Origin: a phage
Sequence record: PZ445427.1
Length of the DNA stretch: 64,000 nucleotides
Reading direction: 5' to 3' (one strand)
Of this stretch, positions 21,745 through 31,211 are shown one piece after another (position 1 is the stretch's first letter; every line of letters starts with the position of its first letter). The notes under the pieces were generated by a model. It ran no database searches. It had not been told where the DNA came from and worked only from the letters and a program-made list of their open reading frames with translations. The position numbers and the translations under genes are program-made.

Positions 21745-21838
21745 GGAAGATTAACCCTAAAGGTAAGGGAGCTGTTTGCTAAACAGCCAGTAACTGTGGA
21801 GACACGGTGTGCCAGTTCGAATCTGGCATCTTCCTCCA
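21745..21838 (+). tRNA. tRNA-Ser(GCT)
   Basis: Acceptor ggaagat/atcttcc, anticodon loop ttgctaa, long variable arm, T-loop ttcgaat, CCA. Confidence 0.75.
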
Positions 21839-21843
21839 AATTT

Positions 21844-21921
21844 GGTTCTCAAGCTCATTTGGTATGAGCCGTCGCCTCATAAGCGAAAGGTAGGTAGGTT
21901 CGAATCCTCCGGGAGCCACCA
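21844..21921 (+). tRNA. tRNA-Met/Ile(CAT)
   Basis: Acceptor ggttctc/gggagcc with G-U pairs, anticodon loop ctcataa, T-arm with one mismatch. Confidence 0.55.
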
Positions 21922-21938
21922 ATTAATTAGGAGACTAT

Positions 21939-22124
21939 ATGTCTAGATTCTACGAAATGAAGAAAGCATTAGAAGAATGTCGGTGTAAGGACTGTCATGG
22001 TGGTGGTAGGCAGGATGATGCAGAACCTGGGGATATTTTCTGTAGAGAATGGGAATGTCCTACATGTAAAGGTACTGGTATCAACCCTGAATATGCAATT
22101 TGTCTAGACATTGAGCGAGGCTAA
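21939..22124 (+). CDS. small zinc-ribbon-like protein (61 aa)
   Basis: AGGAGA RBS; CxxC...CxxC. Confidence 0.5.
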   Translation: MSRFYEMKKALEECRCKDCHGGGRQDDAEPGDIFCREWECPTCKGTGINPEYAICLDIERG

Positions 22125-22125
22125 G

Positions 22126-22464
22126 ATGGATATTTTTACTACTCCGGCAATAAACCTTTTAGGTGTTGGCTTGTTCCAAGCTACGGTGTATCGTACCGAT
22201 GATTCTACTGATGTGGTAACGTTCATCGTACCTGAGTTCTTCCTAGAAAAGTTCTTTGAAGAGTTTGAGCAGTTCCGTGAAGAACACAATGCTCATTCCG
22301 ATATGGAAGATCTAGCAGCTATGTTCCCTGCGGTTTACGGCTATATCTTTGAAGGTAATGGCCTAGATCTTAATAAATCTGAACTCGTTGAACTTAATTG
22401 GGGCATCAATTTTGAGGTTGGCTCTCCATTCCCTCGATATTTCCAGGGTTTAGAGATTCGCTAA
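22126..22464 (+). CDS. hypothetical protein
   Basis: ATG 22126 after previous stop; track start 22111 is TTG. Confidence 0.5.
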   Translation: MDIFTTPAINLLGVGLFQATVYRTDDSTDVVTFIVPEFFLEKFFEEFEQFREEHNAHSDMEDLAAMFPAVYGYIFEGNGLDLNKSELVELNWGINFEVGSPFPRYFQGLEIR

Positions 22465-22472
22465 GATTACAT

Positions 22473-22549
22473 GGGGGTGTAATCGAATTGGCATAGGTAC
22501 TGGACTTAAAATTCAGGTTTTGTGGGTTCGAATCCCACCACCCCTACCA
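22473..22549 (+). tRNA. tRNA with anticodon TAA (Leu-like, short variable loop)
   Basis: Acceptor gggggtg/cacccct, anticodon stem ctgga/ttcag loop cttaaaa, T-arm gtggg-ttcgaat-cccac, CCA. Confidence 0.5.
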
Positions 22550-22564
22550 AATTAAGGAAATAAA

Positions 22565-22686
22565 ATGAAAGCTATTAAGAAAGCACTACGTAAATTTATG
22601 TACTGTCGTTTCCATAGTATTAAGGCTTCAACTAATGGTACGACTTACGATCGCTATGATCCTAAGTTTGGCTTACATTCTAAATA
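22565..22686 (+). CDS. small hypothetical protein (40 aa)
   Basis: AAGGAAA RBS then ATG; below track cutoff. Confidence 0.3.
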
Positions 22687-22700
22687 ACTGGAGATAATAA

Positions 22701-22907
22701 ATGGCTAATCCTGAAATTACTGCACAGCGCTTTATGCTGAAAGGTATTATTGCTGAAGCAGGCATGACAGAAGAAGTTGCAGATTTTCAAAAGCAGTTCC
22801 TAAATATTCTCACTCAAGCCAAAGAGCTAGGAGAGAAAGAACATGGCGCGGCTATTATGGCAATCACATTGGTTGGGCTTGATCTGGCAGAAGAATCAGG
22901 AGTTTAA
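22701..22907 (+). CDS. hypothetical protein (68 aa)
   Basis: GGAGA RBS. Confidence 0.5.
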   Translation: MANPEITAQRFMLKGIIAEAGMTEEVADFQKQFLNILTQAKELGEKEHGAAIMAITLVGLDLAEESGV

Positions 22908-22937
22908 CTCCTCCAAGCAGAAATTTTAAAAATGTAC

Positions 22938-22967
22938 TTGCTTTTTACTTAAGATTTCTGCTATAAT
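22938..22967 (+). promoter_or_regulatory. T5-type early promoter
   Basis: ttgctt 22938..22943, 18-bp spacer, tataat 22962..22967. Confidence 0.55.
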
Positions 22968-22997
22968 AGTTATATAAATTGATGAAGGAGTTAACGA

Positions 22998-23273
22998 ATG
23001 TCAAAACGTGTTACTTCAACTGGTGTTGAAAGTGCTGTTTGTAAATCCTGGGGTGGCTGGGAAGGTGAGATTGAATGGCTTTATTTCTACGATGTAGAAC
23101 TTCTGCCGGAAGTCAAAGCTAAATGTGTGGAAGCTGGTATGGCTCCTGATGCAAAGGCTGATATCGAAATCACCATGACTAAGCTAGAAGGTCGTGTAAT
23201 TACGCTCAATGATGATTATGAAGAAGTGTTCGAGCTTCCATTCAAACTGAGTGTCACTCCTAGCTTCGAGTAA
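22998..23273 (+). CDS. hypothetical protein (91 aa)
   Basis: AAGGAG RBS. Confidence 0.55.
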   Translation: MSKRVTSTGVESAVCKSWGGWEGEIEWLYFYDVELLPEVKAKCVEAGMAPDAKADIEITMTKLEGRVITLNDDYEEVFELPFKLSVTPSFE

Positions 23274-23309
23274 CTGATATAGCACTGAGCAAGTTCTTTA
23301 AAATTTGAC

Positions 23310-23338
23310 TTGCTCAGTCCTTCAAAACTTGATATAAT
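23310..23338 (+). promoter_or_regulatory. T5-type early promoter
   Basis: ttgctc 23310..23315, 17 bp, tataat 23333..23338. Confidence 0.55.
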
Positions 23339-23403
23339 ATTTATCTAATTTGGAAACATATTTAAAAGTGTTTAAATGAGAATTTTTGAATACTTCTAAA
23401 TAT

Positions 23404-23491
23404 GGGCGTTTATTCCGTAAGTGGTAGCGGAGGGGATTGTAAATCCCTGGTCATTGCGACTCGAGTGGTTCGACTCCATTAACGCCCACCA
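23404..23491 (+). tRNA. tRNA-Tyr(GTA)
   Basis: Acceptor gggcgtt/aacgccc, anticodon loop ttgtaaa, long variable arm, T-loop ttcgact, CCA. Confidence 0.75.
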
Positions 23492-23508
23492 AATTAAAGG
23501 TAAAGGAT

Positions 23509-24000
23509 ATGTATATTGATCGGATAATTCAAGAAGCTGCAAATAGGGGTATTATACAGTTGGGTTCACCCGCTGATATAAATAAAGATCTAATATTAGA
23601 AAGCCTCACATTTGGTACAGCTAACTTTGGTCGCGATAGTAATCGTCGATATAGCTTGAAGTTATCTGCACTATCTTTTATCAAGTATAACAAAAGTATT
23701 GGAGAAAAATCCAGCTGTGGTTTTATTTACGCAATAACTAACCCAGCTTGGGATAACTATGTAAAAATTGGTATGTCTTCTGATCCTAAAACAAGATTAA
23801 GAAATTACCAAACCTATTCTCCTTTACGTGATTATAAGTTAATACATTGGTCATTCTGGTTTAATGCTAGAGAAGCGGAGAAAATGCTTCATAATAGCTT
23901 TCCTGAACGGCTTAACGAATGGGTAGTGTTAGACAGAGGTGTAGACGAAATACTTTCCGAGTTTAACAATTTATCCAATAAGCAATTTAAGTCCTGTTAG
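23509..24000 (+). CDS. GIY-YIG nuclease-like protein (T5orf172-type domain)
   Basis: CGFIYAITN ... YVKIGMSSD ... RLRNY arrangement typical of GIY-YIG/T5orf172 domain; sits inside tRNA cluster; stop overlaps tRNA-Glu. Confidence 0.5.
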   Translation: MYIDRIIQEAANRGIIQLGSPADINKDLILESLTFGTANFGRDSNRRYSLKLSALSFIKYNKSIGEKSSCGFIYAITNPAWDNYVKIGMSSDPKTRLRNYQTYSPLRDYKLIHWSFWFNAREAEKMLHNSFPERLNEWVVLDRGVDEILSEFNNLSNKQFKSC

Positions 24001-24067
24001 ACAAACTGGTAAAGTCACTACCCTTTCAAGGTAGGATTTGCGGGTTCGATCCCCGCACAGGACGCCA
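23991..24067 (+). tRNA. tRNA-Glu(TTC)
   Basis: Acceptor gtcctgt/acaggac, anticodon stem ctacc/ggtag loop ctttcaa, T-arm gcggg-ttcgatc-cccgc, CCA. Confidence 0.7.
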
Positions 24068-24075
24068 ATTTCTGC

Positions 24076-24152
24076 ATTCCTAGAGTGTTACTGGACAGCA
24101 TGTCGGTCTCCAAAACCGTACGGTCTAGGTTCGAGTCCTAGTAGGTTTGCCA
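24076..24152 (+). tRNA. tRNA-Trp(CCA), acceptor stem imperfect
   Basis: Anticodon loop ctccaaa, T-arm ctagg-ttcgagt-cctag, CCA; 5' acceptor pairs only 5 of 7. Confidence 0.4.
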
Positions 24153-24158
24153 ATATTT

Positions 24159-24233
24159 GCACCTTTAGCTGAGATGGATTAGCGCTTGCCTGAAGAGCTT
24201 GAGAGGTTCGTTCAATTCGAACAGGGTGCACCA
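24159..24233 (+). tRNA. tRNA-Phe(GAA), weak anticodon stem
   Basis: Acceptor gcacctt/agggtgc, anticodon loop ctgaaga, T-arm gttcg-ttcaatt-cgaac, CCA. Confidence 0.45.
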
Positions 24234-24252
24234 ATTAATCAATATAAGGCTT

Positions 24253-24633
24253 ATGGAAACAAAAACGTGTAATAAGTGTGGAAATACATTTCCCTTGAGT
24301 ACGGACTACTTCTTTAAAAGTGGTAAGCAAGTCTCAGGAAAACAAAAATGGAAACCTATGTGCAAACAATGCGAAAGTATATCTCGTATTGAATACTATA
24401 ATAATACAATTGCCGAGGTTTTTCCTGACTTACATTGTGCTATTTGTGGGTATAACAAGTGTCCACAGGCGATTGATTTCCATCATTTAGAGCAGGATGA
24501 TAAAGAGTTTAATATTAGTGAAGCTAGACGGGGTACGTTTAACAAAGAAAAACTAATAGAAGAGCTTGAGAAATGTGTACCTTTATGCTGTAGGTGTCAC
24601 AGAGAATATCATGCTGGAGTTATTGAGCTTTAA
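24253..24633 (+). CDS. HNH endonuclease-like protein
   Basis: CAICGY...HHL...N...CCRCHREYH HNH/zinc motif; start ATG 24253 (track start 24199 overlaps tRNA). Confidence 0.65.
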   Translation: METKTCNKCGNTFPLSTDYFFKSGKQVSGKQKWKPMCKQCESISRIEYYNNTIAEVFPDLHCAICGYNKCPQAIDFHHLEQDDKEFNISEARRGTFNKEKLIEELEKCVPLCCRCHREYHAGVIEL

Positions 24634-24647
24634 ACTGAAAAATGTAG

Positions 24648-24676
24648 TTGCTTAAATCCTTAAAGTTCTGTATAAT
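24648..24676 (+). promoter_or_regulatory. T5-type early promoter
   Basis: ttgctt 24648..24653, 17 bp, tataat 24671..24676. Confidence 0.6.
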
Positions 24677-24704
24677 TATTATATAAATTGAACTGGAGAA
24701 CTAG

Positions 24705-24893
24705 ATGAAAGCACCTAAACCGAAATTAGTTAAGTTCGACTGCTGTGACACTGAAATCTTATTTACTAAGTTTGGTGAATTTAAGATGTGTGAATGTGGA
24801 ACATGTGGTTATGATCATGGTGATGGATATTATTGCAGAACCCTCGGGCCTTCTGAACTAATCCACTTCTCATGGCCGGAAAGTAAAGAATAA
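24705..24893 (+). CDS. small Cys-rich protein (62 aa)
   Basis: GGAGAA RBS; CCxxC...CxCGxC. Confidence 0.5.
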   Translation: MKAPKPKLVKFDCCDTEILFTKFGEFKMCECGTCGYDHGDGYYCRTLGPSELIHFSWPESKE

Positions 24894-24895
24894 TA

Positions 24896-24971
24896 CGACC
24901 GTTGGCTGAATGGCTTAGGCGGAGGCCTGCAAAACCTCCTTATGTGAGTTCGAATCTCATGCGGTCGTCCA
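24896..24971 (+). tRNA. tRNA-Cys(GCA)
   Basis: Acceptor cgaccgt/gcggtcg, anticodon region ctgcaaa, discriminator U, T-loop ttcgaat, CCA. Confidence 0.6.
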
Positions 24972-24978
24972 AATTTTA

Positions 24979-25061
24979 GGGTCGTTAGCCAAGCGGTTTG
25001 GCGGTGGACTGTTAATCCATGTCGAAAGACAACGTAGGTTCGAATCCTACACGGCCCGCCA
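24979..25061 (+). tRNA. tRNA-Asn(GTT) with unusually long variable arm
   Basis: Acceptor gggtcgt/acggccc, D stem gcca/tggc, anticodon stem gtgga/tccat loop ctgttaa, 13-nt variable arm (gtc-gaaa-gac), T-arm gtagg-ttcgaat-cctac, CCA. Confidence 0.6.
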
Positions 25062-25164
25062 TATTCTGTGTAGAGTTAAGTAAACCGGTAGCCAACCAGC
25101 TATCATTGCTGATATCGAATTCAGTCACAGATACCATTTTTCATTAACAACTGAGGAAATAGAT

Positions 25165-25350: not shown

Positions 25351-25359
25351 ATAAATTAT

Positions 25360-25436
25360 GCGATCGGGGCTGGCTTGGTAATGGTACTCCCCTGTCACGG
25401 GAGAGAATGTGGGTTCGAATCCCATCGGTCGCGCCA
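25360..25436 (+). tRNA. tRNA-Asp(GTC)
   Basis: Acceptor gcgatcg/cggtcgc, anticodon stem ctccc/gggag loop ctgtcac, T-loop ttcgaat, CCA. Confidence 0.75.
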
Positions 25437-25442
25437 AATAAT

Positions 25443-25518
25443 ACATCCATAGCTCAATGGTTAGAGCTACCGCCTCTTAAGCGGAGGGTTCTAGGTTCAA
25501 GTCCTAGTGGGTGTACCA
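25443..25518 (+). tRNA. tRNA-Lys(CTT)
   Basis: Acceptor acatcca/tgggtgt, D stem gctc/gagc, anticodon loop ctcttaa, T-arm ctagg-ttcaagt-cctag, CCA. Confidence 0.65.
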
Positions 25519-25519
25519 A

Positions 25520-25731
25520 ACATCAGAGCAGCGTGATGTACTGCAAAGACCCAAAGTCCGGGGTGGACTTCTTGATTCAAAGGAGCAGGCATTAATTATC
25601 ATTCTAGCGTGGTGGAGAGGGGACACCAGCTTGCCGAGGGTAGAAGCTCGTTCGATTCGAGTGAAAGAATGGTTCTCGTAAATCCGCACAAGTGATAGTA
25701 GGTTCAAGTCCTACCTAGATTGACTCATTAT
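25520..25731 (+). other. unresolved tRNA-like region (two T-arm-like hairpins without canonical acceptor stems)
   Basis: gctcg-ttcgatt-cgagt at 25646..25662 and gtagg-ttcaagt-cctac at 25698..25714; no 7-bp acceptor partner found by eye. Confidence 0.3.
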
Positions 25732-25805
25732 GCGTTCGTAGTTAAAAGGTATAATTTTTGGTTGCCAACCAGAAGTTGAGGGTTCGATTCCCTCCGACCG
25801 CACCA
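25732..25805 (+). tRNA. tRNA-Gly(GCC)
   Basis: Acceptor gcgttcg/cgaccgc (1 mismatch), anticodon stem tttgg/ccaga loop ttgccaa, T-arm gaggg-ttcgatt-ccctc, CCA. Confidence 0.65.
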
Positions 25806-26053
25806 AATTTAGGTTTCTGCTTCCTAGAGAACTGACTCCTAGATAAACAAGGCGATGAGTTTCCGGCCGGTTCTAGTCGCTGAAAATCCTCCCGACCAGG
25901 TAGGTGTAAGTAAACGAAAGTTTACTTATTAAGTAAGTCCGACACATCGGCGGGTGTGTTCTAGTACTTAAAGAAGGTCTCGCAAACTTTCTCGCTAGCA
26001 TGAGTTGATAGCTCGGTGACTTACCTAATAAGTAAATTTATTAAAAAATGTAG

Positions 26054-26082
26054 TTGCTATTTAGCTTAATTCTCTGTATAAT
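26054..26082 (+). promoter_or_regulatory. T5-type early promoter
   Basis: ttgcta 26054..26059, 17 bp, tataat 26077..26082. Confidence 0.6.
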
Positions 26083-26114: not shown

Positions 26115-26192
26115 CTCCGTGTAGCTCAGTTTGGCCAGAGCGTTTCGTTTGGGGCGATAGGGTCGGGGGTTCAAATCCTCCCACGGAGACCA
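26115..26192 (+). tRNA. tRNA-Pro(TGG)
   Basis: Acceptor ctccgtg/cacggag, anticodon loop tttgggg (G37), variable gggtc, T-loop ttcaaat, CCA. Confidence 0.7.
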
Positions 26193-26198
26193 AACAAT

Positions 26199-26276
26199 TG
26201 CGGGTTAGATCTCTGGTAGAGATCGCTAGTCTCATAAGCTAGAAAGAGGTAGGTTCGATTCCTACACCCGCTTCCA
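26199..26276 (+). tRNA. tRNA-Met/Ile(CAT)
   Basis: Acceptor tgcgggt/acccgct with 1:72 mismatch, anticodon stem ctagt/gctag loop ctcataa, T-arm gtagg-ttcgatt-cctac, CCA. Confidence 0.6.
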
Positions 26277-26464: not shown

Positions 26465-26542
26465 TGACCGTTAACTCAACTGGATAAGAGTACCGAGCTT
26501 TTACCTCGTAGGTTCTGGGTTCGAATCCCAGACGGTCAACCA
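26465..26542 (+). tRNA. tRNA-Lys(TTT)
   Basis: Acceptor tgaccgt/acggtca, anticodon loop cttttac, T-arm ctggg-ttcgaat-cccag, CCA. Confidence 0.7.
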
Positions 26543-27010: not shown

Positions 27011-27084
27011 GCTCGGTTAGTTTAATGGGAGAACCCCGTCTTTACACGGCGGTTGCGATAGTTCGATTCTATCACCGAGTACCA
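27011..27084 (+). tRNA. tRNA-Val(TAC)
   Basis: Acceptor gctcggt/accgagt, anticodon stem ccgtc/ggcgg loop tttacac, T-arm gatag-ttcgatt-ctatc, CCA. Confidence 0.7.
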
Positions 27085-27103: not shown

Positions 27104-27463
27104 TTGCAAATGCAATTATCAAGCAAGGTTCAAGGCTATTTCGGGCATGTAACAATGGAGTTCGCTATCTCTAAAGGTTGGGACTTCGAACAAGATCTAG
27201 CTGAATTCTACAAAGATATTGATCTGAATGTACCGTACATAGGACTCTCTACTGGTCAAGAGATCACAGAAGGCGATGTGTTCAAGGCAAGTCAAGGTGA
27301 GGTAACACCTAGTTTTGCCGAGTTCTGGTTAGGTATTACTTTGAAAGAAGATGCACCGGATGGTGGTGTGGTTATGCAGAGTATGCACTCTGGAAGCTCT
27401 GACTACCTTTTCGTTAGTGACGTTAAGGAAATACAAGAAATCTGCAAAAATGTACTTGCTTGA
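27104..27463 (+). CDS. hypothetical protein (119 aa)
   Basis: AAGGAA RBS. Confidence 0.55.
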   Translation: MQMQLSSKVQGYFGHVTMEFAISKGWDFEQDLAEFYKDIDLNVPYIGLSTGQEITEGDVFKASQGEVTPSFAEFWLGITLKEDAPDGGVVMQSMHSGSSDYLFVSDVKEIQEICKNVLA

Positions 27464-27484
27464 TGCTTAATTTCTTGTTATAAT
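27456..27484 (+). promoter_or_regulatory. T5-type early promoter
   Basis: ttgctt 27456..27461, 17 bp, tataat 27479..27484. Confidence 0.6.
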
Positions 27485-27727
27485 ATTTATATAAATTGAT
27501 GGGGAGAAATCCTCATCAAAGTTCACTAAGGTATTAGCTCGACCTAGGACTGGCTGCCAAAAAGCACGATCCCTACGACTTGGGAGAAGTTCTAGATTAG
27601 TCCACTAGATTCAGTGGCAACTGAATAGTGTATCGGGTTTGTGAAGAGCGGTTATCCTCTACTGGCTAATGTCTGAGGGTAATACGCACACCGAGCTAAT
27701 AGCCTTAGTAAACTAGAAGGAATATCT

Positions 27728-27991
27728 ATGTTTGATCTTAAAGATATGGCTAAGAAACTAATGTCGCAACGTTATCAACAAAGAACCCTCCATAAACGAG
27801 TTTCCGATATGAAGAAACGTTGCAATAATGCTAAGTATTATAATAGTCTTAATAAACTATCTGATGTAGATCTTGCTAAAACTGAAGCAATATATAATCA
27901 CTTAGTAGTAGAATCTGATATAGTGAATAAAGATATTGCTAGGCTAGAAGCTCAGATTGTAGCAACTGTTCTCGATATGTATAGAGAATAA
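27728..27991 (+). CDS. hypothetical protein (87 aa)
   Basis: AGAAGGAA RBS; preceded by about 240-nt ORF-free leader. Confidence 0.5.
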   Translation: MFDLKDMAKKLMSQRYQQRTLHKRVSDMKKRCNNAKYYNSLNKLSDVDLAKTEAIYNHLVVESDIVNKDIARLEAQIVATVLDMYRE

Positions 27992-28000
27992 ATAAATTTT

Positions 28001-28079
28001 GGGGAATGGGTCTGCATGGAGTGGACACCTCGCTTGCACCGAGGACATCAGAACGGTTCGATTCCGTTATTCTCCACCA
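28001..28079 (+). tRNA. tRNA-Ala(TGC)
   Basis: Acceptor ggggaat/attctcc with G3-U70, anticodon stem cctcg/cgagg loop cttgcac, T-arm aacgg-ttcgatt-ccgtt, CCA. Confidence 0.65.
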
Positions 28080-28085
28080 AAATTC

Positions 28086-28161
28086 GGGGTCATAGGTTAT
28101 TTGGTTAAACTTACTGCCTTGCAAGCAGTGGAACTCAGTTCAATTCTGAGTGACTCCACCA
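28086..28161 (+). tRNA. tRNA-Ala(TGC) second copy (divergent sequence)
   Basis: Acceptor ggggtca/tgactcc with G3-U70, anticodon stem actgc/gcagt loop cttgcaa, T-arm ctcag-ttcaatt-ctgag, CCA. Confidence 0.6.
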
Positions 28162-28180
28162 AACAAATTAAGGAAATAAT

Positions 28181-28399
28181 ATGGTATTCTTAGCAGCCTC
28201 TGTAGTTCTTGCAGCTTTAGCACTAGCTATCTATTTTAGAACTATTAAAGATTTAGCTAAAGAAAAGAAAACTTTCTTTACTGATTATTCTTGGGGCGCT
28301 CCATATACCGTCCGCTTTATCAGCTTAGAAGCTATGCTGATAATGGTATTCAGTGGTATAGGTTCCGTTGTTACAGGGTTACTATTTATTTCTAACTAA
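28181..28399 (+). CDS. small membrane protein (72 aa)
   Basis: AAGGAAA RBS; two hydrophobic segments. Confidence 0.5.
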   Translation: MVFLAASVVLAALALAIYFRTIKDLAKEKKTFFTDYSWGAPYTVRFISLEAMLIMVFSGIGSVVTGLLFISN

Positions 28400-28406
28400 A
28401 TAAAAT

Positions 28407-28487
28407 GGGGATGTGGCGAAATTGGCAGACGCGCTAGATTTAGGCTCTAGTCTTCGGGTGTGGGTTCGAGTCCCTCCATCCCTACCA
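28407..28487 (+). tRNA. tRNA-Leu(TAG)
   Basis: Acceptor ggggatg/catccct, anticodon stem ctaga/tctag loop tttaggc, long variable arm, T-loop ttcgagt, CCA. Confidence 0.7.
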
Positions 28488-28661
28488 AACATTGGATTAA
28501 CTCATGATGAAAACTCCTATAACTGATATCTGGTTAGCTGTTAATACATTAACTAAAGAGTATGTGTTTATAGAGTATGGTCAGAGGTATGACCAAAAGA
28601 TGTATAATCTCATACTTCCAGTATCCGCTAATGAAGTTTATGATTTAATCCTGAGATCTAC

Positions 28662-28752
28662 GGAAGAGCAAATCGATTAGGTGACGAAAACCGCTTGGAA
28701 AGTGGCTGACTGGTAAAACGGCTTGAGAGTTCGAATCTCTCTTCTTCCGCCA
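28662..28752 (+). tRNA. tRNA-Ser(GGA)
   Basis: Acceptor ggaagag/ttcttcc, anticodon loop ttggaaa, long variable arm, T-arm gagag-ttcgaat-ctctc, CCA; 91 nt. Confidence 0.55.
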
Positions 28753-28774
28753 AACAACTTACTAGGAAACTAAT

Positions 28775-29131
28775 ATGTCAGAAGTGACAATCTATAATGA
28801 AATGCTTGGCAAAATTTTTACTAGTGTATGCCAAGACCAAGATACTCTTATCTTCATTTGTACTGATGGTAAGAACTATAAGTTTTATCATGAGCAGGAC
28901 TGCTGTGAAGATGTTCATATAGATGATATTATTGGTGATTTACATGACCTTTTAGGTTATCCAATCATAGAAGCAGAGGAAGTAATCACACACGCTACAG
29001 AAGATTGGGATTCAGTAACCCATACATGGTATAAGTTTGCCACAGCTAAAGGCTGTGTAACCGTTAAATGGCATGGTTCTAGTAATGGTTATTACTCTGA
29101 ATCTGTAAACTTTGTAATATACGAACAATAG
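28775..29131 (+). CDS. hypothetical protein (118 aa)
   Basis: AGGAAA RBS. Confidence 0.55.
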   Translation: MSEVTIYNEMLGKIFTSVCQDQDTLIFICTDGKNYKFYHEQDCCEDVHIDDIIGDLHDLLGYPIIEAEEVITHATEDWDSVTHTWYKFATAKGCVTVKWHGSSNGYYSESVNFVIYEQ

Positions 29132-29219
29132 AAGATAGGACGTAGTGGTACGTAACCGGTCTTGAAAACCGGCCCGCTGTAGTGATATGGTGATGGTTCG
29201 ACTCCATTATCTTCTGCCA
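29130..29219 (+). tRNA. tRNA-Ser(TGA)
   Basis: Acceptor agaagat/atcttct perfect, anticodon stem ccggt/accgg loop cttgaaa, long variable arm, T-loop ttcgact, CCA. Confidence 0.75.
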
Positions 29220-29356
29220 AATCTTGAAGTATGCCGGAATCGGTAGACGGGGCTTCCTAAAGGGCGTAAGGGGAACATCCACTCCTCATAAGATACCCGA
29301 AAACGAGGCTGAGATAAATGGTCTATCTCGTGAAGGTTCAAGTCCTTCTGCTTCTT
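29220..29356 (+). other. unresolved tRNA-like structured region
   Basis: Hairpin gagata-aatggtc-tatctc followed by T-arm-like gaagg-ttcaagt-ccttc; no canonical acceptor stem found. Confidence 0.3.
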
Positions 29357-29577
29357 GATATTCAATGGCTCAAAGAGTAACGGTGCACCTTTCTAGAGAA
29401 TTTCCTGGGCGAGAATCCAGGTGTAATCAACTAGTTGTTAGTGTGATGAGTTTCGGAGAGCCGCCACAATTGAAAATTCGTACTCGTCTTGAGCTTCGTG
29501 CAATAGAAGATAACTTGATTAGTATTCTAGAAAATGCTATTTGAGGATGGTTTCGCTAACCCTGCGAGTTTTCAATT

Positions 29578-29654
29578 GTGGCTATATCATAATTGGTTAA
29601 TGATCCTGATTGTGAATCAGGCCTATGTGGATTCGAGTTCCACTAGCCACCCCA
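29578..29654 (+). tRNA. tRNA-His(GTG)
   Basis: Acceptor gtggcta/tagccac, anticodon stem cctga/tcagg loop ttgtgaa, T-arm gtgga-ttcgagt-tccac, CCA. Confidence 0.75.
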
Positions 29655-29660
29655 AATATT

Positions 29661-29735
29661 GCGTCCTTATTTCAACGGAAAGAATGTAAAGCTACGAACT
29701 TTACGATCGGGGTTCGATTCCCTGAGGATGCACCA
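29661..29735 (+). tRNA. tRNA-Arg(ACG)
   Basis: Acceptor gcgtcct/aggatgc, anticodon stem taaag/cttta loop ctacgaa, T-arm cgggg-ttcgatt-ccctg, CCA. Confidence 0.7.
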
Positions 29736-29759
29736 ATTAACTTAAACAGGAAAATAATA

Positions 29760-29960
29760 ATGGCTGATTTCTGTAAAGAATGCTCTATCGATATGTGGGG
29801 CAAAGATACACAAGATCTTTCTGGTCTTATCACTGAAGCCGAGGTTAAAGAGGGCTACGGTGCTGTAGTAATCTGCGAAGGTTGTGGTATTATCCGTGTT
29901 GATCATGAAGGCAAACGCCTTGAAGAACCTGAGCCAATCGCAACGGTTCCTGTAGAGTAA
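29760..29960 (+). CDS. small zinc-ribbon-like protein (66 aa)
   Basis: ATG 29760 after AGGAAAA; CxxC...CxxC; track ORF 29625.. overlaps tRNAs and is rejected as start. Confidence 0.5.
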   Translation: MADFCKECSIDMWGKDTQDLSGLITEAEVKEGYGAVVICEGCGIIRVDHEGKRLEEPEPIATVPVE

Positions 29961-29968
29961 AGAATTAT

Positions 29969-30044
29969 TGGGATGTAGATCAATTGGCAGATCGTCGGCC
30001 TCTGACTCCGAAGGTTCCACGTTCGATCCGTGGCATCCCAGCCA
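29969..30044 (+). tRNA. tRNA-Gln(CTG)
   Basis: U1-A72 acceptor tgggatg/catccca, anticodon loop ctctgac, T-arm ccacg-ttcgatc-cgtgg, 3' end CCCAGCCA. Confidence 0.7.
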
Positions 30045-30050
30045 AACAAT

Positions 30051-30126
30051 TGGAGAGTAGTGTAACGGTTAGCACAACGGCCTTTGACTCCGTTAATGGT
30101 AGGTTCGATTCCTCCTTCTCCAGCCA
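30051..30126 (+). tRNA. tRNA-Gln(TTG)
   Basis: U1-A72 acceptor tggagag/ttctcca, anticodon loop ctttgac, T-loop ttcgatt, CCA. Confidence 0.65.
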
Positions 30127-30132
30127 ATTTAT

Positions 30133-30207
30133 GCGTGATTAGTTCAGTGGCTAGAATAACTGGCTTCCAACCAGTAGACACGAGTTCGACTCTCGTATCC
30201 CGCACCA
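30133..30207 (+). tRNA. tRNA-Gly(TCC)
   Basis: Acceptor gcgtgat/atcccgc (1 mismatch), anticodon stem actgg/ccagt loop cttccaa, T-arm acgag-ttcgact-ctcgt, CCA. Confidence 0.7.
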
Positions 30208-30223
30208 AATATAAGGAAACGTT

Positions 30224-30466
30224 ATGGACGTTTTTGAGTTTCGTAATAAAAGCCCCAATAGGCGCGTTTTGATTATTGGTGAAACATATCGAGCTTATGA
30301 GCAAGAAGATGGTTCGGTTTTACTAAACGATGAAAAGCAAGGTTATAGCTTTTATCCAGAAGAAACGTATGAAGAATTTCGTACCAAGTTTCTCTTACCA
30401 GACTGGCTAGCAGTAGCCGAGCAACGAGAATCCGAAGATGGCAGAAAACCTAAAATTAAAGGTTGA
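30224..30466 (+). CDS. hypothetical protein (80 aa)
   Basis: AAGGAAA RBS. Confidence 0.55.
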   Translation: MDVFEFRNKSPNRRVLIIGETYRAYEQEDGSVLLNDEKQGYSFYPEETYEEFRTKFLLPDWLAVAEQRESEDGRKPKIKG

Positions 30467-30612
30467 CAAACAAAAGAAATACGTTGAGGTTGAATTAGGC
30501 GAAGAACGCTTAAAGCTATCCTTCGAGTTTCTTCAGCAGTTGGCGATGACAGTAATGTCTGATAAGTCTCCTGTATTTGAGAAAGAAATCCCGTTGAAAT
30601 GACGGGTTTATT

Positions 30613-30687
30613 GCTCCTAAAGCATTGCTGGCGATGCAGTTGCCTTGTAAGCATCTGAACCGGGTTCGATTCCTGGTGGGAGCACCA
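30613..30687 (+). tRNA. tRNA-Thr(TGT)
   Basis: Acceptor gctccta/tgggagc, D stem gcat/atgc, anticodon loop cttgtaa, T-arm ccggg-ttcgatt-cctgg, CCA. Confidence 0.7.
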
Positions 30688-30702
30688 AATTTAAAAATTC
30701 AT

Positions 30703-30731
30703 TTGCCTTCTCTCTTATTTCTTGTTATAAT
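30703..30731 (+). promoter_or_regulatory. T5-type early promoter
   Basis: ttgcct 30703..30708, 17 bp, tataat 30726..30731. Confidence 0.55.
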
Positions 30732-30761
30732 ATTTATATAAATTAATGAGAGGGAAACCAA

Positions 30762-31055
30762 ATGAAACGTTATCTTTCTGTCGTATTCCAAACGGGTGGT
30801 CAACGCTACACTTACGAATTTCCTGAGTCTTGGAAAATCAAAGAGGGTGATCAAGTTGTTGTGTTAACACCTCGTGAAGGCTTCAAAGTAGTAACGGTTA
30901 AACAAGTATTTCCAAAAGATCACGAACCATCTAAGTCTCTTAACTATAAGATGATTCATGGTCTGGTACGAAAAGTACCTAGAACAGAAGTCGAAGTAGA
31001 TAAAACTGGAGAAGCTAAATACCAGTATACCTCTTACTTAGACGAAATGATGTAA
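30762..31055 (+). CDS. hypothetical protein (97 aa)
   Basis: GAGAGGGAAA RBS. Confidence 0.55.
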   Translation: MKRYLSVVFQTGGQRYTYEFPESWKIKEGDQVVVLTPREGFKVVTVKQVFPKDHEPSKSLNYKMIHGLVRKVPRTEVEVDKTGEAKYQYTSYLDEMM

Positions 31056-31056
31056 T

Positions 31057-31132
31057 GCTCCGATAGTTCAAACGGTTAGAACAGGCGACCGATAATCGTC
31101 AAATCTTGGTTCGATCCCAAGTCGGAGTACCA
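31057..31132 (+). tRNA. tRNA-Ile(GAT)
   Basis: Acceptor gctccga/tcggagt, anticodon stem ggcga/tcgtc loop ccgataa, T-arm cttgg-ttcgatc-ccaag, CCA. Confidence 0.6.
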
Positions 31133-31138
31133 AATTAT

Positions 31139-31211
31139 AGTTAGTTGGCAGAGTGGTTATGCACCTCCTTCATACGGAGTGACTACAGTGGTTCAAATCC
31201 ACTACTAACTA
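31139..31211 (+). tRNA. tRNA-Met/Ile(CAT), CCA not encoded
   Basis: Acceptor agttagt/actaact perfect, anticodon loop ttcatac, T-arm agtgg-ttcaaat-ccact. Confidence 0.6.

What the first reader, a model, noticed from the sequence alone, without database searches (positions are those of the whole stretch)
21745..31211. tRNA set covers all 20 amino acids but includes atypical members
Thirty tRNA genes were modelled by eye; together their anticodons cover every amino acid, which supports the calls overall. Oddities worth checking: tRNA-Asn(GTT) at 24979..25061 with a 13-nt variable arm (normally restricted to Leu/Ser/Tyr); two divergent tRNAs both with anticodon TGC and G3-U70 (28001 and 28086); three CAT tRNAs (21844, 26199, 31139), one with a 1:72 mismatch as in initiators; a TAA-anticodon tRNA with a short variable loop (22473).
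Basis: seen in the sequence. Interest (0 to 1): 0.4.

Follow-up and report, generated by a model that had tools for sequence, protein, structure and literature searches.

The report
T5-like phage tRNA array with odd members
This is the well-known tRNA gene cluster of a T5-like Salmonella/E. coli phage; its odd-looking tRNAs are real, and one of them, an asparagine tRNA carrying an extra arm, belongs to a widespread, largely phage-borne tRNA type that I could not find described.

Summary
There are 28 tRNAs in 21745-31212, plus a degenerate Ser(GGA) at 28662-28752 and Arg(UCU) at 16287, making 30, and all 20 amino acids are covered.

The window is an Epseptimavirus, about 96% identical to Salmonella phages ZBSTP12, S116 and BSP22A. 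This is the classic T5-type tRNA-rich early region, already annotated in relatives and studied as a codon-supply and anti-defence module.

- **CAT tRNAs:** by synteny with the T5 record they are Ile2, initiator-like fMet and elongator Met.
- **Ala(UGC) genes:** the two are separate lineages, and both carry G3·U70 and A73.
- **Leu tRNAs:** they have lost or shrunk the variable arm but keep A73 and a Leu-type D-arm. E. coli LeuRS does not need that arm.
- **Asn(GUU):** it has a covarying 3-4 bp variable-arm hairpin, often closed by a GNRA loop, with tRNA-Tyr-like geometry, and it keeps G73 and the host Asn anticodon arm. T5 itself has an unrelated class I Asn.

I found 104 distinct long-arm Asn tRNAs. 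They were about 16% of sampled viral matches, against 30 matches across 185,579 species genomes. The array is known; the long-arm Asn looks like an undescribed structural variant. Its charging is inferred, not shown.

The parts
16287..16361 (+). tRNA-Arg(UCU), outlying member of the set
   Evidence: ARAGORN; Rfam 49.3 bits
21692..21730 (+). T5-type early promoter (A-tract, TTGCTT, 17-nt spacer, TATAAT) in front of Ser-Ile2
   Evidence: regex scan; the T5 record annotates promoters at equivalent places
21745..21838 (+). tRNA-Ser(GCU), class II with a 6-bp variable-arm stem
   Evidence: Rfam 48.4 bits
21844..21921 (+). CAT tRNA no. 1: probable tRNA-Ile2 (lysidine type), A73, C5:G68, C29:G41, U50.C64 mismatch in the T stem
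   Evidence: 86% identical and syntenic to T5 tRNAI2(CAU) next to Ser3(GCU)
22473..22549 (+). tRNA-Leu(UAA) with class I shape: 5-nt variable loop, A73, G1.U72, 3-bp D stem with loop GAATTGGCATA as in E. coli leuZ
   Evidence: Rfam 57.4 bits; 324 phage records at >=95% identity
22928..22967 (+). T5-type early promoter
23300..23338 (+). T5-type early promoter upstream of tRNA-Tyr
   Evidence: a strong tRNA-Tyr promoter in T5-like phages is described in PMC11555353
23404..23491 (+). tRNA-Tyr(GUA), class II
23991..24067 (+). tRNA-Glu(UUC)
24076..24152 (+). tRNA-Trp(CCA); acceptor stem has two U.U mismatches (2:71 and 3:70)
   Evidence: Rfam 36.3 bits
24159..24233 (+). tRNA-Phe(GAA)
24638..24676 (+). 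T5-type early promoter
24896..24971 (+). tRNA-Cys(GCA)
24979..25061 (+). tRNA-Asn(GUU) with a long variable arm (GTC-GAAA-GAC + AAC), G73, encoded CCA, and the same anticodon loop and lower stem as E. coli asnT (GGACTGTTAATCC)
   Evidence: Rfam 59 bits
25064..25136 (+). homologue of T5 'RNA3' (annotated there as putative tRNA-like RNA)
   Evidence: 97% identity over 73 nt; T5 annotation
25360..25436 (+). tRNA-Asp(GUC)
25443..25518 (+). tRNA-Lys(CUU)
25600..25724 (+). homologue of T5 'RNA2' (annotated there as tRNA-like stable RNA, function unknown)
   Evidence: 88% identity over 125 nt
25732..25805 (+). tRNA-Gly(GCC)
26043..26082 (+). T5-type early promoter upstream of Pro-fMet
26115..26192 (+). 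tRNA-Pro(UGG)
26199..26276 (+). CAT tRNA no. 2: initiator-like tRNA with U1.U72, G2:C71, C3:G70, G4:C69, A11:U24, but U73 and only G30:C40 of the three anticodon-stem G:C pairs
   Evidence: one nucleotide different from T5 'tRNAfM, initiator tRNA fMet'
26465..26542 (+). tRNA-Lys(UUU), a different lineage from the T5 Lys(UUU); anticodon loop CUUUUAC
27011..27084 (+). tRNA-Val(UAC)
27446..27484 (+). T5-type early promoter
27532..27644 (+). homologue of T5 stable RNA 'RNA2H'
   Evidence: 96% identity over 113 nt
28001..28079 (+). tRNA-Ala(UGC) lineage A: G3.U70, A73, G8, 7-nt variable loop, long D loop
   Evidence: Rfam 36.3 bits
28086..28161 (+). tRNA-Ala(UGC) lineage B: G3.U70, A73
   Evidence: Rfam 59.6 bits
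28407..28487 (+). tRNA-Leu(UAG) with the variable arm shrunk to 9 nt (U-C(UUCG)G-GU); A73; D arm and anticodon arm close to E. coli leuW
28662..28752 (+). degenerate tRNA-Ser(GGA), the 30th gene; good acceptor and T arms and encoded CCA, weak D and anticodon stems
   Evidence: identical to the annotated tRNA-Ser of BSP22A; fold; not called by ARAGORN or Rfam
29130..29219 (+). tRNA-Ser(UGA), class II
29223..29366 (+). homologue of T5 'RNA1' (annotated there as tRNA-like stable RNA)
   Evidence: 81% identity over 145 nt
29471..29576 (+). homologue of T5 stable 'RNAIII', directly abutting tRNA-His
   Evidence: 96% identity over 106 nt
29578..29654 (+). tRNA-His(GUG), C73; the nucleotide at -1 is U, not the G-1 that E. 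coli tRNA-His carries (E. coli comparison from memory)
29661..29735 (+). tRNA-Arg(ACG)
29969..30044 (+). tRNA-Gln(CUG)
30051..30126 (+). tRNA-Gln(UUG)
30133..30207 (+). tRNA-Gly(UCC)
30613..30687 (+). tRNA-Thr(UGU)
   Evidence: 97% identical to the T5 Thr(UGU)
30693..30731 (+). T5-type early promoter
31057..31132 (+). tRNA-Ile(GAU)
31139..31212 (+). CAT tRNA no. 3: elongator tRNA-Met (U4:A69, A5:U68 and U29:A41 as in E. coli metT); the only gene here without encoded CCA (reads CTA; T5 has CCA)
   Evidence: syntenic with T5 tRNAM(CAU) next to Ile1(GAU)

Best explanation
The region is the tRNA-rich early region of a T5-like phage (Demerecviridae, Epseptimavirus). About 30 tRNA genes sit on one strand in tight groups with 5-8 nt spacers. 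Nearly all encode their own CCA. They are interleaved with small ORFs and T5-type stable RNAs and are driven by repeated strong sigma-70 early promoters. Together they give the phage a near-complete set of adaptors.

As shown for T5 and its relatives, such a set does two things. It supplies A-ending codons that this 40% G+C phage uses far more than its host does. It also replaces host tRNAs destroyed by defence nucleases.

The atypical members are working tRNAs whose bodies have drifted, or been swapped between phages, as far as the host synthetases' identity rules allow.

- The Leu tRNAs have lost or minimised the variable arm, which LeuRS does not need, and keep A73 and the Leu-type D arm.
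- Ser and Tyr keep their arms, which SerRS and TyrRS need.
- Both Ala genes keep G3.U70 and A73.
- The three CAU tRNAs divide into Ile2 (lysidine type), an initiator-like tRNA and elongator Met.
- The Asn tRNA keeps what AsnRS reads, the GUU anticodon and G73, along with a host-like anticodon arm. It belongs to a separate, widespread, mostly phage-borne lineage that carries a Tyr-type extra hairpin.

Shown here: the gene calls, the structures, the conservation and covariation, the synteny and the codon bias. Inferred: expression, charging specificity, and any selective value of arm gain or loss.
For: **Identity of the locus.** The region is 95-96% identical over 81-88% of 9.6 kb to Epseptimavirus genomes. 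The gene order matches BSP22A (30 annotated tRNAs) and T5. Six T5 stable RNAs map to the intergenic gaps. Seven T5-type promoters lie on the tRNA strand.

**Function.** T5 tRNA-Lys, Thr and Asn neutralise PARIS/AriB (PMC11464382 and PMC12409363). T5 tRNA-Tyr counters retron Eco7 (PMC11555353). T5-like phages are described as encoding an almost complete tRNA set (PMC10644984). Ten of the 12 A-ending codons read by the phage's U34 tRNAs are enriched relative to E. coli: AGA 7.5x, CUA 4.8x, GGA 2.9x, UUA 2.2x and others. AUA, the Ile2 codon, is enriched 3.5x.

**Leu.** A73 and D loops resemble E. coli leuZ and leuW. E. coli LeuRS needs A73 and not the long arm (PMC9976931). Streptomyces LeuRS charges a natural type I tRNA-Leu (PMC6614811). 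In 1670 tRNAs from viral arrays, 67 of 151 Leu are <=77 nt, 0 of 97 Ser are, and 3 of 61 Tyr are.

**Asn.** The variable-arm helix covaries: all 4 pairs show changes on both sides, 96.6% of cells are paired, and the whole cloverleaf is 98.9% paired against 34-45% when the partners are slid. I found 104 unique sequences, 54 distinct stems, 50 of 90 GNRA loops and G73 in 101 of 104. The minimum-free-energy fold gives the five-helix structure. Bacterial Asn identity is the anticodon plus G73 (PMC9976931).

**CAT trio.** The determinant table is, together with the T5 record's annotation.

**Ala.** G3.U70 and A73 are present in all three lineages.
Against: - No expression, modification or aminoacylation data exist for this phage. 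I found none for the long-arm Asn or the short-arm Leu lineages. The PARIS experiments used T5's own Asn, which is class I and unrelated in sequence.
- G73 plus a long arm, together with G1:C72, G2:C71 and C11:G24 in this phage's copy, are also features that SerRS uses. Some serylation of the Asn tRNA is therefore not excluded.
- The initiator-like tRNA lacks two of the three anticodon-stem G:C pairs and has U73, so it may initiate poorly.
- Ser(GGA) and Trp score weakly and may be impaired. The T5 record notes that several T5 tRNAs did not yield suppressors.
- The Ile2 versus Met assignment rests on a few determinants and on the T5 annotation. Overall identity to the E. coli references does not discriminate (0.58-0.68).
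Confidence: 0.8

Rival explanations
1. The long-arm 'Asn' tRNA is not an asparagine tRNA in practice. Its long arm and G73 make it a SerRS substrate, or a dual-identity tRNA, so AAC/AAU codons would be partly read as Ser. This would parallel nematode nev-tRNAs and bacterial allo-tRNAs.
For: It has a class II-type arm and G73. The window's copy also has G1:C72, G2:C71 and C11:G24, which are conserved in E. coli tRNA-Ser (rules from PMC9976931 and PMC7609411). Precedents exist for variable-arm tRNAs with class I anticodons charged according to their body: nev-tRNAs (PMC4033280) and allo-tRNAs.
Against: The arm geometry is Tyr-like, not Ser-like. It has a 3-4 bp stem and 3-4 unpaired nucleotides on the 3' side. 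Ser tRNAs in the same arrays have 4-7 bp stems and 0-1 unpaired nucleotides there. Seventy-five of 104 family members start with U1, as E. coli tRNA-Asn does, rather than the G1:C72 of tRNA-Ser. The anticodon arm is kept host-Asn-like. The gene sits at the position where T5 has its ordinary Asn gene, and each examined phage has one Asn gene. Proteome-wide Asn-to-Ser errors would be costly.
Confidence: 0.07
2. The atypical members (long-arm Asn, Ala-28001, Trp, Ser(GGA), armless Leu) are decaying or non-functional copies carried along in a fast-evolving, recombination-prone array.
For: Rfam scores are low for Ala-28001 and Trp (36.3 bits each). Ser(GGA) gets no call at all. A marginal tRNA-like remnant lies at 15683-15754. 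T5 carries an annotated pseudo-tRNA-Gln and tRNA-like RNAs. The array is mosaic between relatives.
Against: The Asn and Leu(UAA) genes score 57-59 bits. They are 100% conserved in many genomes and more than 95% conserved in 267 and 324 records respectively. The Asn arm shows compensatory changes across more than 50 distinct stems. Identity elements are retained: G73, A73 and G3.U70. Each is the only gene for its amino acid or codon in the set, and UUA and CUA are 2-5x enriched in phage genes.
Confidence: 0.08
3. The reshaped variable arms are themselves counter-defence adaptations. Under this reading the Leu arms were lost to escape nucleases that cut class II variable arms, and the Asn arm was gained to block or distract nucleases that attack tRNA-Asn or tRNA-Tyr.
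For: Defence nucleases do cut variable arms. Retron Eco7 PtuAB and Septu cleave the variable loop or stem of tRNA-Tyr, and T5 tRNA-Tyr is reported to resist because of its distinctive variable loop (PMC13096335). AriB cuts tRNA-Asn at 40/41, next to where the arm emerges. The window's Asn keeps the host's U36-AAUC|C41 site unchanged, so sequence escape has not occurred at that site. The long-arm type is strongly enriched on viral arrays.
Against: No experiment bears on it. I could not establish which Asn type the PARIS-sensitive T5 relatives carry. Arm loss in Leu is equally explained by relaxed constraint. GNRA-capped hairpins may simply be stable neutral insertions. This reading adds to the main explanation rather than excluding it.
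Confidence: 0.25

Closest known systems
tRNA gene region of bacteriophage T5 (GenBank AY543070) and other Demerecviridae
   Same: The gene order, strand, promoter type and CCA-encoding genes in tight groups are the same. So are the interspersed small ORFs and homing-endonuclease-like genes and the stable RNAs RNA1, RNA2, RNA2H, RNA3, RNAIII and RNAIV. The Ile2/fMet/Met trio, Thr, His, Asp and Cys genes are the same or nearly so.
   Different: Several positions hold other lineages: Asn (long-arm here, class I in T5), Lys(UUU), the Gln genes, Ala (A+B here, C in T5) and Leu(UAG) (9-nt arm here, 85-nt class II tRNA in T5). This phage also has genes absent from the stretch of T5 examined (record positions 20000-40000): Leu(UAA), Lys(CUU), Gly(GCC), Arg(ACG) and Arg(UCU).
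Phage tRNAs as counter-defence (T5 Lys/Thr/Asn versus PARIS AriB; T5 Tyr versus retron Eco7; the anticodon-loop mutation hypothesis)
   Same: The phage family and array are the same. Lys(UUU) here also departs from the host UAAU motif in the anticodon loop and stem.
   Different: Published escape is by base substitutions in the anticodon stem-loop or by overexpression. Here the Asn keeps the host anticodon arm and differs by a whole extra helix, which those papers do not discuss.
Nematode nev-tRNAs and bacterial allo-tRNAs (variable-arm tRNAs carrying class I anticodons)
   Same: They combine a long variable arm with an anticodon outside Leu/Ser/Tyr.
   Different: nev-tRNAs and allo-tRNAs are charged according to their Leu-, Ser- or Ala-type body and cause or permit recoding. 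Allo-tRNAs have 8/4 or 9/3 acceptor/T-stem architecture (from memory). The phage Asn has a normal 7/5 cloverleaf, the Asn discriminator, a host Asn anticodon arm and a Tyr-type arm.
Type I (short variable loop) tRNA-Leu of Streptomyces coelicolor, and mitochondrial tRNA-Leu(UUR)
   Same: These are tRNA-Leu species without the long arm that the cognate LeuRS still leucylates. Identity rests on A73 and D-loop or tertiary elements (PMC6614811; PMC9976931).
   Different: Those are cellular or organellar. Here, and in 67 of 151 Leu tRNAs from the sampled viral arrays, the armless form is phage-borne and must be read by an enterobacterial LeuRS.
E. coli initiator tRNA-fMet (metZ/W/V)
   Same: It shares the 1:72 mismatch, G2:C71, C3:G70, G4:C69, G5:C68, A11:U24 and the CAU anticodon.
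   Different: The mismatch is U.U rather than C.A. The discriminator is U73 rather than A73. Only G30:C40 remains of the three consecutive G:C pairs. The variable loop has 6 nt.

Membership tests
T5-like (Demerecviridae) tRNA-rich early region | Nucleotide homology and synteny with T5/Epseptimavirus tRNA regions | tested here: met
   95-96% identity over 81-88% of the query to Epseptimavirus genomes. The tRNA order matches BSP22A and T5.
T5-like (Demerecviridae) tRNA-rich early region | T5-type strong early promoters and T5 stable RNAs interspersed with the tRNAs | tested here: met
   Seven promoters on the + strand. RNA1, RNA2, RNA2H, RNA3, RNAIII and RNAIV have homologues; RNAI was not found.
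Bacterial tRNA-Asn (class I) | Anticodon GUU and discriminator G73 (the AsnRS identity set) | tested here: met
   G73 in 101 of 104 family members. Rule from PMC9976931.
Bacterial tRNA-Asn (class I) | Short (4-5 nt) variable loop | tested here: not met
   13-nt arm with a 3-bp stem and a GAAA loop. E. coli asnT and T5 Asn both have 5 nt.
Bacterial tRNA-Asn (class I) | Charged with asparagine by AsnRS | not testable with these tools
   Needs an aminoacylation assay.
Class II tRNAs (Leu, Ser, bacterial Tyr) | Base-paired variable arm of more than 10 nt | tested here: met
   Met for the Asn tRNA. The helix covaries. Its geometry matches Tyr.
Class II tRNAs (Leu, Ser, bacterial Tyr) | Anticodon and discriminator of Leu, Ser or Tyr | tested here: not met
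   GUU anticodon. G73 is unfavourable for LeuRS and TyrRS (PMC9976931).
Bacterial tRNA-Leu | Discriminator A73 and a Leu-type D arm (3-bp stem, G18G19 placement) | tested here: met
   Both Leu genes have A73. Their D loops, GAATTGGCATA and AAATTGGCAGA, compare with E. coli GAATCGGTAGA and AAATTGGTAGA.
Bacterial tRNA-Leu | Long variable arm | tested here: not met
   5 nt in Leu(UAA) and 9 nt in Leu(UAG). This arm is not an E. coli LeuRS identity element.
Bacterial initiator tRNA-fMet | 1:72 mismatch, G2:C71, C3:G70, G4:C69 and A11:U24 (formylase determinants) | tested here: met
   The rule for 1:72 and 11:24 is in PMC9976931. The 2:71-4:69 determinants are from memory of the work of RajBhandary and colleagues.
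Bacterial initiator tRNA-fMet | Three consecutive G:C pairs 29-31:39-41 in the anticodon stem | tested here: not met
   The stem is CUAGU/GCUAG, so only G30:C40 is present. The T4-like phage homologues do have GGG/CCC.
tRNA-Ile2 (lysidine, CAU) | CAU anticodon with Ile-type body determinants (C4:G69, C29:G41, A73) | tested here: inconclusive
   The tRNA at 21844 has C29:G41, A73 and C5:G68, but U4:A69. The homologous T5 gene is annotated Ile2.
tRNA-Ile2 (lysidine, CAU) | C34 converted to lysidine by TilS | not testable with these tools
   Needs modification mapping.
tRNA-Ala | G3.U70 wobble pair and A73 | tested here: met
   Both 28001 and 28086, and the third lineage in T5 and EH3, carry them.
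allo-tRNA / nev-tRNA (recoding variable-arm tRNAs) | Body identity elements of Ser, Leu or Ala that override the anticodon; non-7/5 stem architecture for allo-tRNA | tested here: not met
   Normal 7/5 cloverleaf, Tyr-type rather than Ser- or Leu-type arm geometry, and no G3.U70.

The most novel reading that the evidence does not exclude
The long-arm tRNA-Asn is one member of a large, essentially phage- and tRNA-array-borne family of class II-shaped asparagine tRNAs. They have a Tyr-type, often GNRA-capped variable arm. Their origin may be a tRNA-Tyr-like ancestor changed by A36U and A73G. In the novel reading, the arm is maintained because it alters how tRNA-targeting defence nucleases or other host factors handle the molecule.

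This would be part of a wider rule in which phages add or delete variable arms wherever synthetase identity rules allow. Leu loses the arm, Ser and Tyr keep it, and Asn, and occasionally Cys, Trp and Thr, gain it.
Probability: 0.3. Interest if true: 0.7.

Novelty: new variant of a known kind. Interest (0 to 1): 0.45.

Why it matters
The array itself adds nothing new. It is the T5-type tRNA region, currently studied as a codon-supply and anti-defence module.

What may matter is the pattern behind two of the oddities. Textbooks reserve the long variable arm for Leu, Ser and bacterial Tyr. Here an Asn tRNA with a covarying extra arm is conserved in hundreds of sequenced enterobacterial phages, both T5-like and T4-like. 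It recurs in over a hundred distinct forms on viral tRNA arrays and is very rare in cellular genomes. Leu tRNAs on the same arrays frequently lack the arm.

If these tRNAs are charged as their anticodons suggest, they are natural experiments. They show which tRNA body features host synthetases, EF-Tu and the ribosome really require. Variable arms are now known targets of defence nucleases (retron Eco7, Septu), so they may also mark a second axis of the phage-host tRNA arms race, beyond anticodon-loop substitutions.

There is a practical side too. Annotation pipelines and tRNA-seq references should expect class II-shaped Asn and class I-shaped Leu in phages.

Tried and rejected
1. **BLAST of the three CAT tRNAs against 5,426 E. 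coli genomes.** The aim was to see which host tRNA each resembles. There were no hits at E<=0.1: the queries are too short and divergent for that database size. I replaced this with fetched K-12 reference genes and a determinant table. Overall pairwise identity (0.58-0.68) did not discriminate.
2. **Origin of the long-arm Asn from its D-arm nearest neighbours among 1,500 array tRNAs.** The result was inconclusive; Ser, Ile, Cys, Tyr and Leu all tie often. Only the arm geometry points to Tyr.
3. **Covariance model of the long-arm Asn.** It matches every tRNA, so its 150-row alignment mixes families. I did not use it for counts and used the seed alignment and explicit parsing instead.
4. **Generic promoter and terminator scan.** It found no enrichment over shuffles. 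A T5-specific pattern was needed.
5. **Literature searches for a described long-arm phage tRNA-Asn (and text searches).** Nothing was found. The library lacks most subscription-journal papers, including the 1980s T5 tRNA papers, so absence is weak evidence.
6. **The lead that PARIS-sensitive phage Bas34 might carry the long-arm Asn.** Bas34 is SelmaRatti, a Tequintavirus, and its Asn type was not determined.
7. **A selenocysteine or suppressor reading of the class II tRNAs.** Rejected. The tRNA-Sec hits for Tyr and Ser(UGA) fall below the gathering score and reflect class II shape only. UAA is the anticodon, which reads UUA/UUG; it is not the stop codon.

Full report

Yes. ARAGORN finds 29 tRNA genes in the window, all on the + strand. 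Twenty-eight lie between 21745 and 31212, and Arg(UCU) lies at 16287. Each coordinate and anticodon in the finding is reproduced exactly.

Rfam's tRNA model detects all 29. It reports 26 of them at gathering thresholds with default filters. His (58.6 bits), Ala-28001 (36.3 bits) and Tyr appear with permissive filters. Tyr scores best as the class II tRNA-Sec model.

A thirtieth gene, Ser(GGA) at 28662-28752, is missed by both programs. It is sequence-identical to a tRNA-Ser annotated in Salmonella phage BSP22A. All 20 amino acids are covered within the stated range.

**2. What the locus is.**

The 9.6-kb stretch is 95-96% identical to Epseptimavirus genomes: Salmonella phages ZBSTP12, S116, BSP22A, Stitch and others. 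In total 625 phage records match. The tRNA order is that of BSP22A and, with substitutions, that of phage T5 (AY543070).

The T5 record also annotates stable RNAs of unknown function in the gaps between tRNAs. Six of them have homologues here:

| T5 RNA | Window coordinates | Identity |
|---|---|---|
| RNA3 | 25064-25136 | 97% |
| RNA2 | 25600-25724 | 88% |
| RNAIV | about 25938-25989 | 81% (partial) |
| RNA2H | 27532-27644 | 96% |
| RNA1 | 29223-29366 | 81% |
| RNAIII | 29471-29576 | 96% |

Seven promoters of the T5 early type (A-tract, TTGCTT, about 17 nt, TATAAT) lie on the tRNA strand, at 21692, 22928, 23300, 24638, 26043, 27446 and 30693. The tRNAs sit in groups separated by 5-8 nt. Twenty-eight of the 29 ARAGORN genes encode their CCA, and so does Ser(GGA). 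This is therefore the long-known T5-type tRNA-rich early region.

**3. What it does.**

This part comes from the literature plus one calculation.

- T5-like phages are described as encoding an almost complete tRNA set (PMC10644984).
- T5 tRNA-Lys(UUU), Thr(UGU) and Asn(GUU) together neutralise the PARIS nuclease AriB (PMC11464382 and PMC12409363).
- T5 tRNA-Tyr counters retron Eco7 (PMC11555353).
- A bacterial Schlafen cleaves T5 tRNA-Ala(UGC) among other tRNAs (PMC13056530).

I compared 41 long ORFs of the window with 25 E. coli K-12 genes. The A-ending codons read by the phage's U34 tRNAs are enriched in 10 of 12 cases: AGA 7.5x, CUA 4.8x, GGA 2.9x, UUA 2.2x, CCA 2.1x, ACA 2.0x, GUA 1.9x, CAA 1.7x, GCA 1.4x and UCA 1.2x. 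AUA, the codon of a lysidine-type Ile2, is enriched 3.5x. Codon supply and replacement of nuclease-depleted host tRNAs are therefore both plausible here. Neither was tested for this phage.

**4. The three CAU tRNAs.**

Synteny with the T5 record assigns them.

- The gene at 21844, which follows Ser(GCU), corresponds to tRNAI2(CAU).
- The gene at 26199, which follows Pro, corresponds to 'initiator tRNA fMet' and differs from it by one nucleotide.
- The gene at 31139, which follows Ile(GAU), corresponds to tRNAM(CAU).

A determinant table against E. coli ileX, metT and metZ agrees with this.

- **26199:** it has U1.U72, G2:C71, C3:G70, G4:C69, G5:C68 and A11, as metZ does. It differs in having U73 and only G30:C40 of the three anticodon-stem G:C pairs. 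I therefore call it initiator-like rather than a full member of that family.
- **31139:** it shares U4:A69, A5:U68 and U29:A41 with elongator metT. It is the only gene here without an encoded CCA; it reads CTA where T5 has CCA.
- **21844:** it shares C5:G68, C29:G41 and G30:C40 with ileX, but has U4:A69. The Ile2 assignment is probable, not proven.

**5. The two Ala(UGC) genes.**

T5-like phages carry three unrelated Ala(UGC) lineages.

- Lineage A: window 28001, BSP22A and Proteus phage Stubb.
- Lineage B: window 28086, BSP22A and EH3.
- Lineage C: T5 and EH3.

All have G3.U70 and A73, the AlaRS identity set. Different phages hold different pairs, so the array is mosaic. Keeping two bodies with one anticodon fits redundancy against body-specific nucleases. 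That is an inference.

**6. The Leu tRNAs.**

Leu(UAA) is 77 nt with a 5-nt variable loop. Leu(UAG) is 81 nt, with its arm reduced to U-C(UUCG)G-GU. Both keep A73 and a Leu-type D arm very close to E. coli leuZ and leuW.

For E. coli LeuRS the discriminator A73 and D/T-loop tertiary elements are decisive. The long arm is dispensable (PMC9976931). Streptomyces coelicolor LeuRS charges a natural type I tRNA-Leu (PMC6614811). The short Leu(UAA) is at least 95% identical in 324 phage records.

I ran ARAGORN on 150 fetched loci, which gave 1670 tRNAs. All 97 Ser tRNAs are long. Fifty-one of 61 Tyr are at least 81 nt. By contrast, 67 of 151 Leu are 77 nt or shorter, and most of those have A73 (45 of 57 unique sequences). 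The arm is lost where the synthetase does not need it and kept where it does.

**7. The Asn tRNA.**

This is the most unusual member. Its layout is GGGTCGT-TA-GCCA-AGCGGTT-TGGC-G-GTGGA-CTGTTAA-TCCAT-[GTC GAAA GAC AAC]-GTAGG-TTCGAAT-CCTAC-ACGGCCC-G-CCA. The bracketed part is the variable arm. The minimum-free-energy fold gives exactly this five-helix structure.

Its anticodon loop and lower stem (GGACTGTTAATCC) are those of E. coli asnT, and it has the Asn discriminator G73.

T5's own Asn gene sits at the same place in the array. It is a 78-nt class I tRNA of unrelated sequence, so the two are alternative alleles. The T5 type occurs at >=95% identity in about 134 phage records. The long-arm type occurs at that level in 267 records. 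At lower identity it is also found in Proteus phage Stubb and in T4-like phages of Klebsiella, Enterobacter, Serratia, Cronobacter and Aeromonas.

The arm covaries between these phages: GTC/GAC, GTTC/GAAC, ATCC/GGAT and GTCA/TGAC. In a 15-sequence alignment all four arm pairs show changes on both sides and 96.6% of cells are paired. The whole cloverleaf is 98.9% paired, against 34-45% when the partners are slid.

**8. How widespread the long-arm Asn is.**

I scanned for the host-type Asn anticodon arm followed by a T loop at long-arm spacing.

- Across one genome each of 185,579 bacterial and archaeal species it gave only 30 stretches. None was enterobacterial. Nine of them lie inside arrays of 10-36 tRNAs, for example in Micromonospora.
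- Parsing gave 104 distinct long-arm Asn tRNAs with 90 distinct arms and 54 distinct stems. Fifty of the 90 loops are GNRA, and 101 of 104 tRNAs have G73.
- In a scan without a length restriction, the first 120 viral stretches split into 101 with class I spacing and 19 with long-arm spacing, which is 16%.
- Ninety-nine of 120 long-arm loci hold five or more tRNAs, against 39 of 101 class I loci.

The denominator for cellular genomes was not measured, so the enrichment is clearly large but not quantified.

**9. What kind of arm it is.**

I compared arm geometry for tRNA families in the same arrays.

| Family | Median arm length | Stem | Unpaired on 5' side | Unpaired on 3' side |
|---|---|---|---|---|
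| Long-arm Asn | 15 nt | 3-4 bp | 0-1 | 3-4 |
| Tyr | 14 nt | about 3 bp | 0-1 | 3-4 |
| Ser | 18 nt | 4-7 bp | mostly 1 | 0-1 |
| Leu | 13 nt | mostly 3-5 bp | mostly 0 | mostly 1 |

The Asn arm therefore matches Tyr and differs from Ser and Leu. Tyr (GUA) and Asn (GUU) anticodons differ by one base, and the Tyr and Asn discriminators are A73 and G73. A Tyr-to-Asn identity switch is a possible origin. A nearest-neighbour test on D-arm sequence was inconclusive.

**10. Mechanistic reading, and what is inferred.**

Bacterial AsnRS identity is the GUU anticodon plus G73 (PMC9976931), and the family keeps both. G73 disfavours LeuRS and TyrRS. The Tyr-type arm geometry, and U1 in 75 of 104 members, argue against SerRS.

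I therefore judge the tRNA to be asparagine-accepting (inference, about 0.8). Partial serylation is not excluded. The window's own copy has G1:C72, G2:C71, C11:G24 and G73, which tRNA-Ser also has.

Why the arm is kept is unknown. Defence nucleases are now known to cut variable arms: retron Eco7 and Septu cut tRNA-Tyr there (PMC13096335). AriB cuts tRNA-Asn at 40/41, next to where the arm emerges, and the window's Asn retains the host sequence at that site. An anti-defence role for arm gain in Asn and arm loss in Leu is thus a live hypothesis, but untested.

**11. Comparison with what is known, and novelty.**

The array is already known and is annotated in near-identical genomes. The CAU trio, the stable RNAs and many irregular T5 tRNAs are documented in the T5 record. 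Type I tRNA-Leu has a bacterial precedent.

I found no description of a class II-shaped tRNA-Asn. I searched the library five times. I also checked the phage-tRNA papers and reviews of tRNA identity and non-canonical tRNAs. That library lacks most subscription-journal papers, so prior description cannot be ruled out.

The nearest described things are nematode nev-tRNAs and bacterial allo-tRNAs. Those are charged according to their Leu-, Ser- or Ala-type bodies, which is not what the features here suggest.

I rate the finding as a new variant of a known kind, on account of the Asn tRNA and the arm-gain and arm-loss pattern. Interest is moderate.

Noticed in passing
window 28662-28752: A degenerate tRNA-Ser(GGA) that neither ARAGORN nor Rfam calls, even at E<=1. 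It has good acceptor and T arms, an encoded CCA, and weak D and anticodon stems. It is identical to the annotated tRNA-Ser of BSP22A and occupies the same array position as T5 tRNAS2(GGA), which the T5 record says did not yield a suppressor.
   Followed up: partly
window 15683-15754: A marginal tRNA-like element (Rfam 29.3 bits against a gathering score of 29). It has a good T arm, but its acceptor strands do not pair, it has no CCA, and no tRNA is annotated there in BSP22A. It is probably a tRNA remnant about 530 nt upstream of Arg(UCU).
   Followed up: partly
window 25064-25136, 25600-25724, 25938-25989, 27532-27644, 29223-29366, 29471-29576: Homologues of the T5 stable RNAs of unknown function (RNA3, RNA2, RNAIV, RNA2H, RNA1, RNAIII). 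Some carry T-arm-like hairpins. T5 RNAI gave no match, which leaves 29367-29470 unassigned.
   Followed up: partly
window 29577-29654: tRNA-His has the E. coli-type acceptor stem GUGGCUA and C73, but the nucleotide at -1 is U. E. coli tRNA-His carries a G-1 that HisRS normally requires (E. coli rule from memory). The T5 record annotates its His gene one nucleotide longer than ARAGORN does.
   Followed up: no
window 24076-24152: tRNA-Trp(CCA) has two U.U mismatches in the acceptor stem (2:71 and 3:70). It does not fold into a cloverleaf as its minimum-free-energy structure (z-score +0.31).
   Followed up: no
window 31139-31215: The elongator Met gene is the only tRNA here without an encoded CCA. 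It reads ...ACTAACT-A-CTA, where T5 has ...A-CCA. BSP22A and EH3 show the same change, so this tRNA would depend on the host CCA-adding enzyme.
   Followed up: partly
window 23509-24000 and 28775-29131: The ORF at 23509-24000 carries a T5orf172 domain (Pfam E=5e-9), and its 3' end overlaps the first bases of tRNA-Glu. The ORF at 28775-29131 is a DUF7448 protein (E=3e-26). The other small ORFs between the tRNAs have no Pfam match.
   Followed up: partly
window 2901-49170 (+ strand): Twenty-six matches to the T5-type promoter pattern lie on the + strand, against two on the - strand. This is consistent with one long early transcription block running through the tRNA region.
   Followed up: no
L046:9035-9115 and L100 (Cys), L084 and L146 (Trp), L052 and L115 (Thr), L021, L055, L058, L059 and others (Ile-UAU): Other class I families on viral tRNA arrays also sometimes carry hairpin variable arms, often GNRA-capped: Cys 6 of 50, Trp 6 of 60 and Thr 7 of 71. 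Thirteen Ile tRNAs, eleven with anticodon UAU and two GAU, are 83-94 nt; the UAU ones share a recurring CAGAT(T/A)A motif in the extra arm. The sample was selected for long-arm Asn, so these frequencies are not unbiased.
   Followed up: no
L040:114-200 (Azoarcus sp. L1K30): This 'long-arm' match is a class I tRNA-Asn with a tandem duplication of GTAGGTC in the variable region, not a hairpin arm. At least one of the 30 cellular hits is therefore a different phenomenon.
   Followed up: no
L005:3210-3286, L006:3576-3652, L003:9092-9168: T4-like and other T5-like phages carry initiator-like CAU tRNAs that start with U1, have a 1:72 mismatch, and have U73 (A73 in Proteus phage Stubb). The T4-like ones keep GGG/CCC in the anticodon stem and the T5-like ones do not. 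An initiator-like tRNA with U1 and a 1:72 mismatch thus seems to be a recurrent phage type.
   Followed up: no
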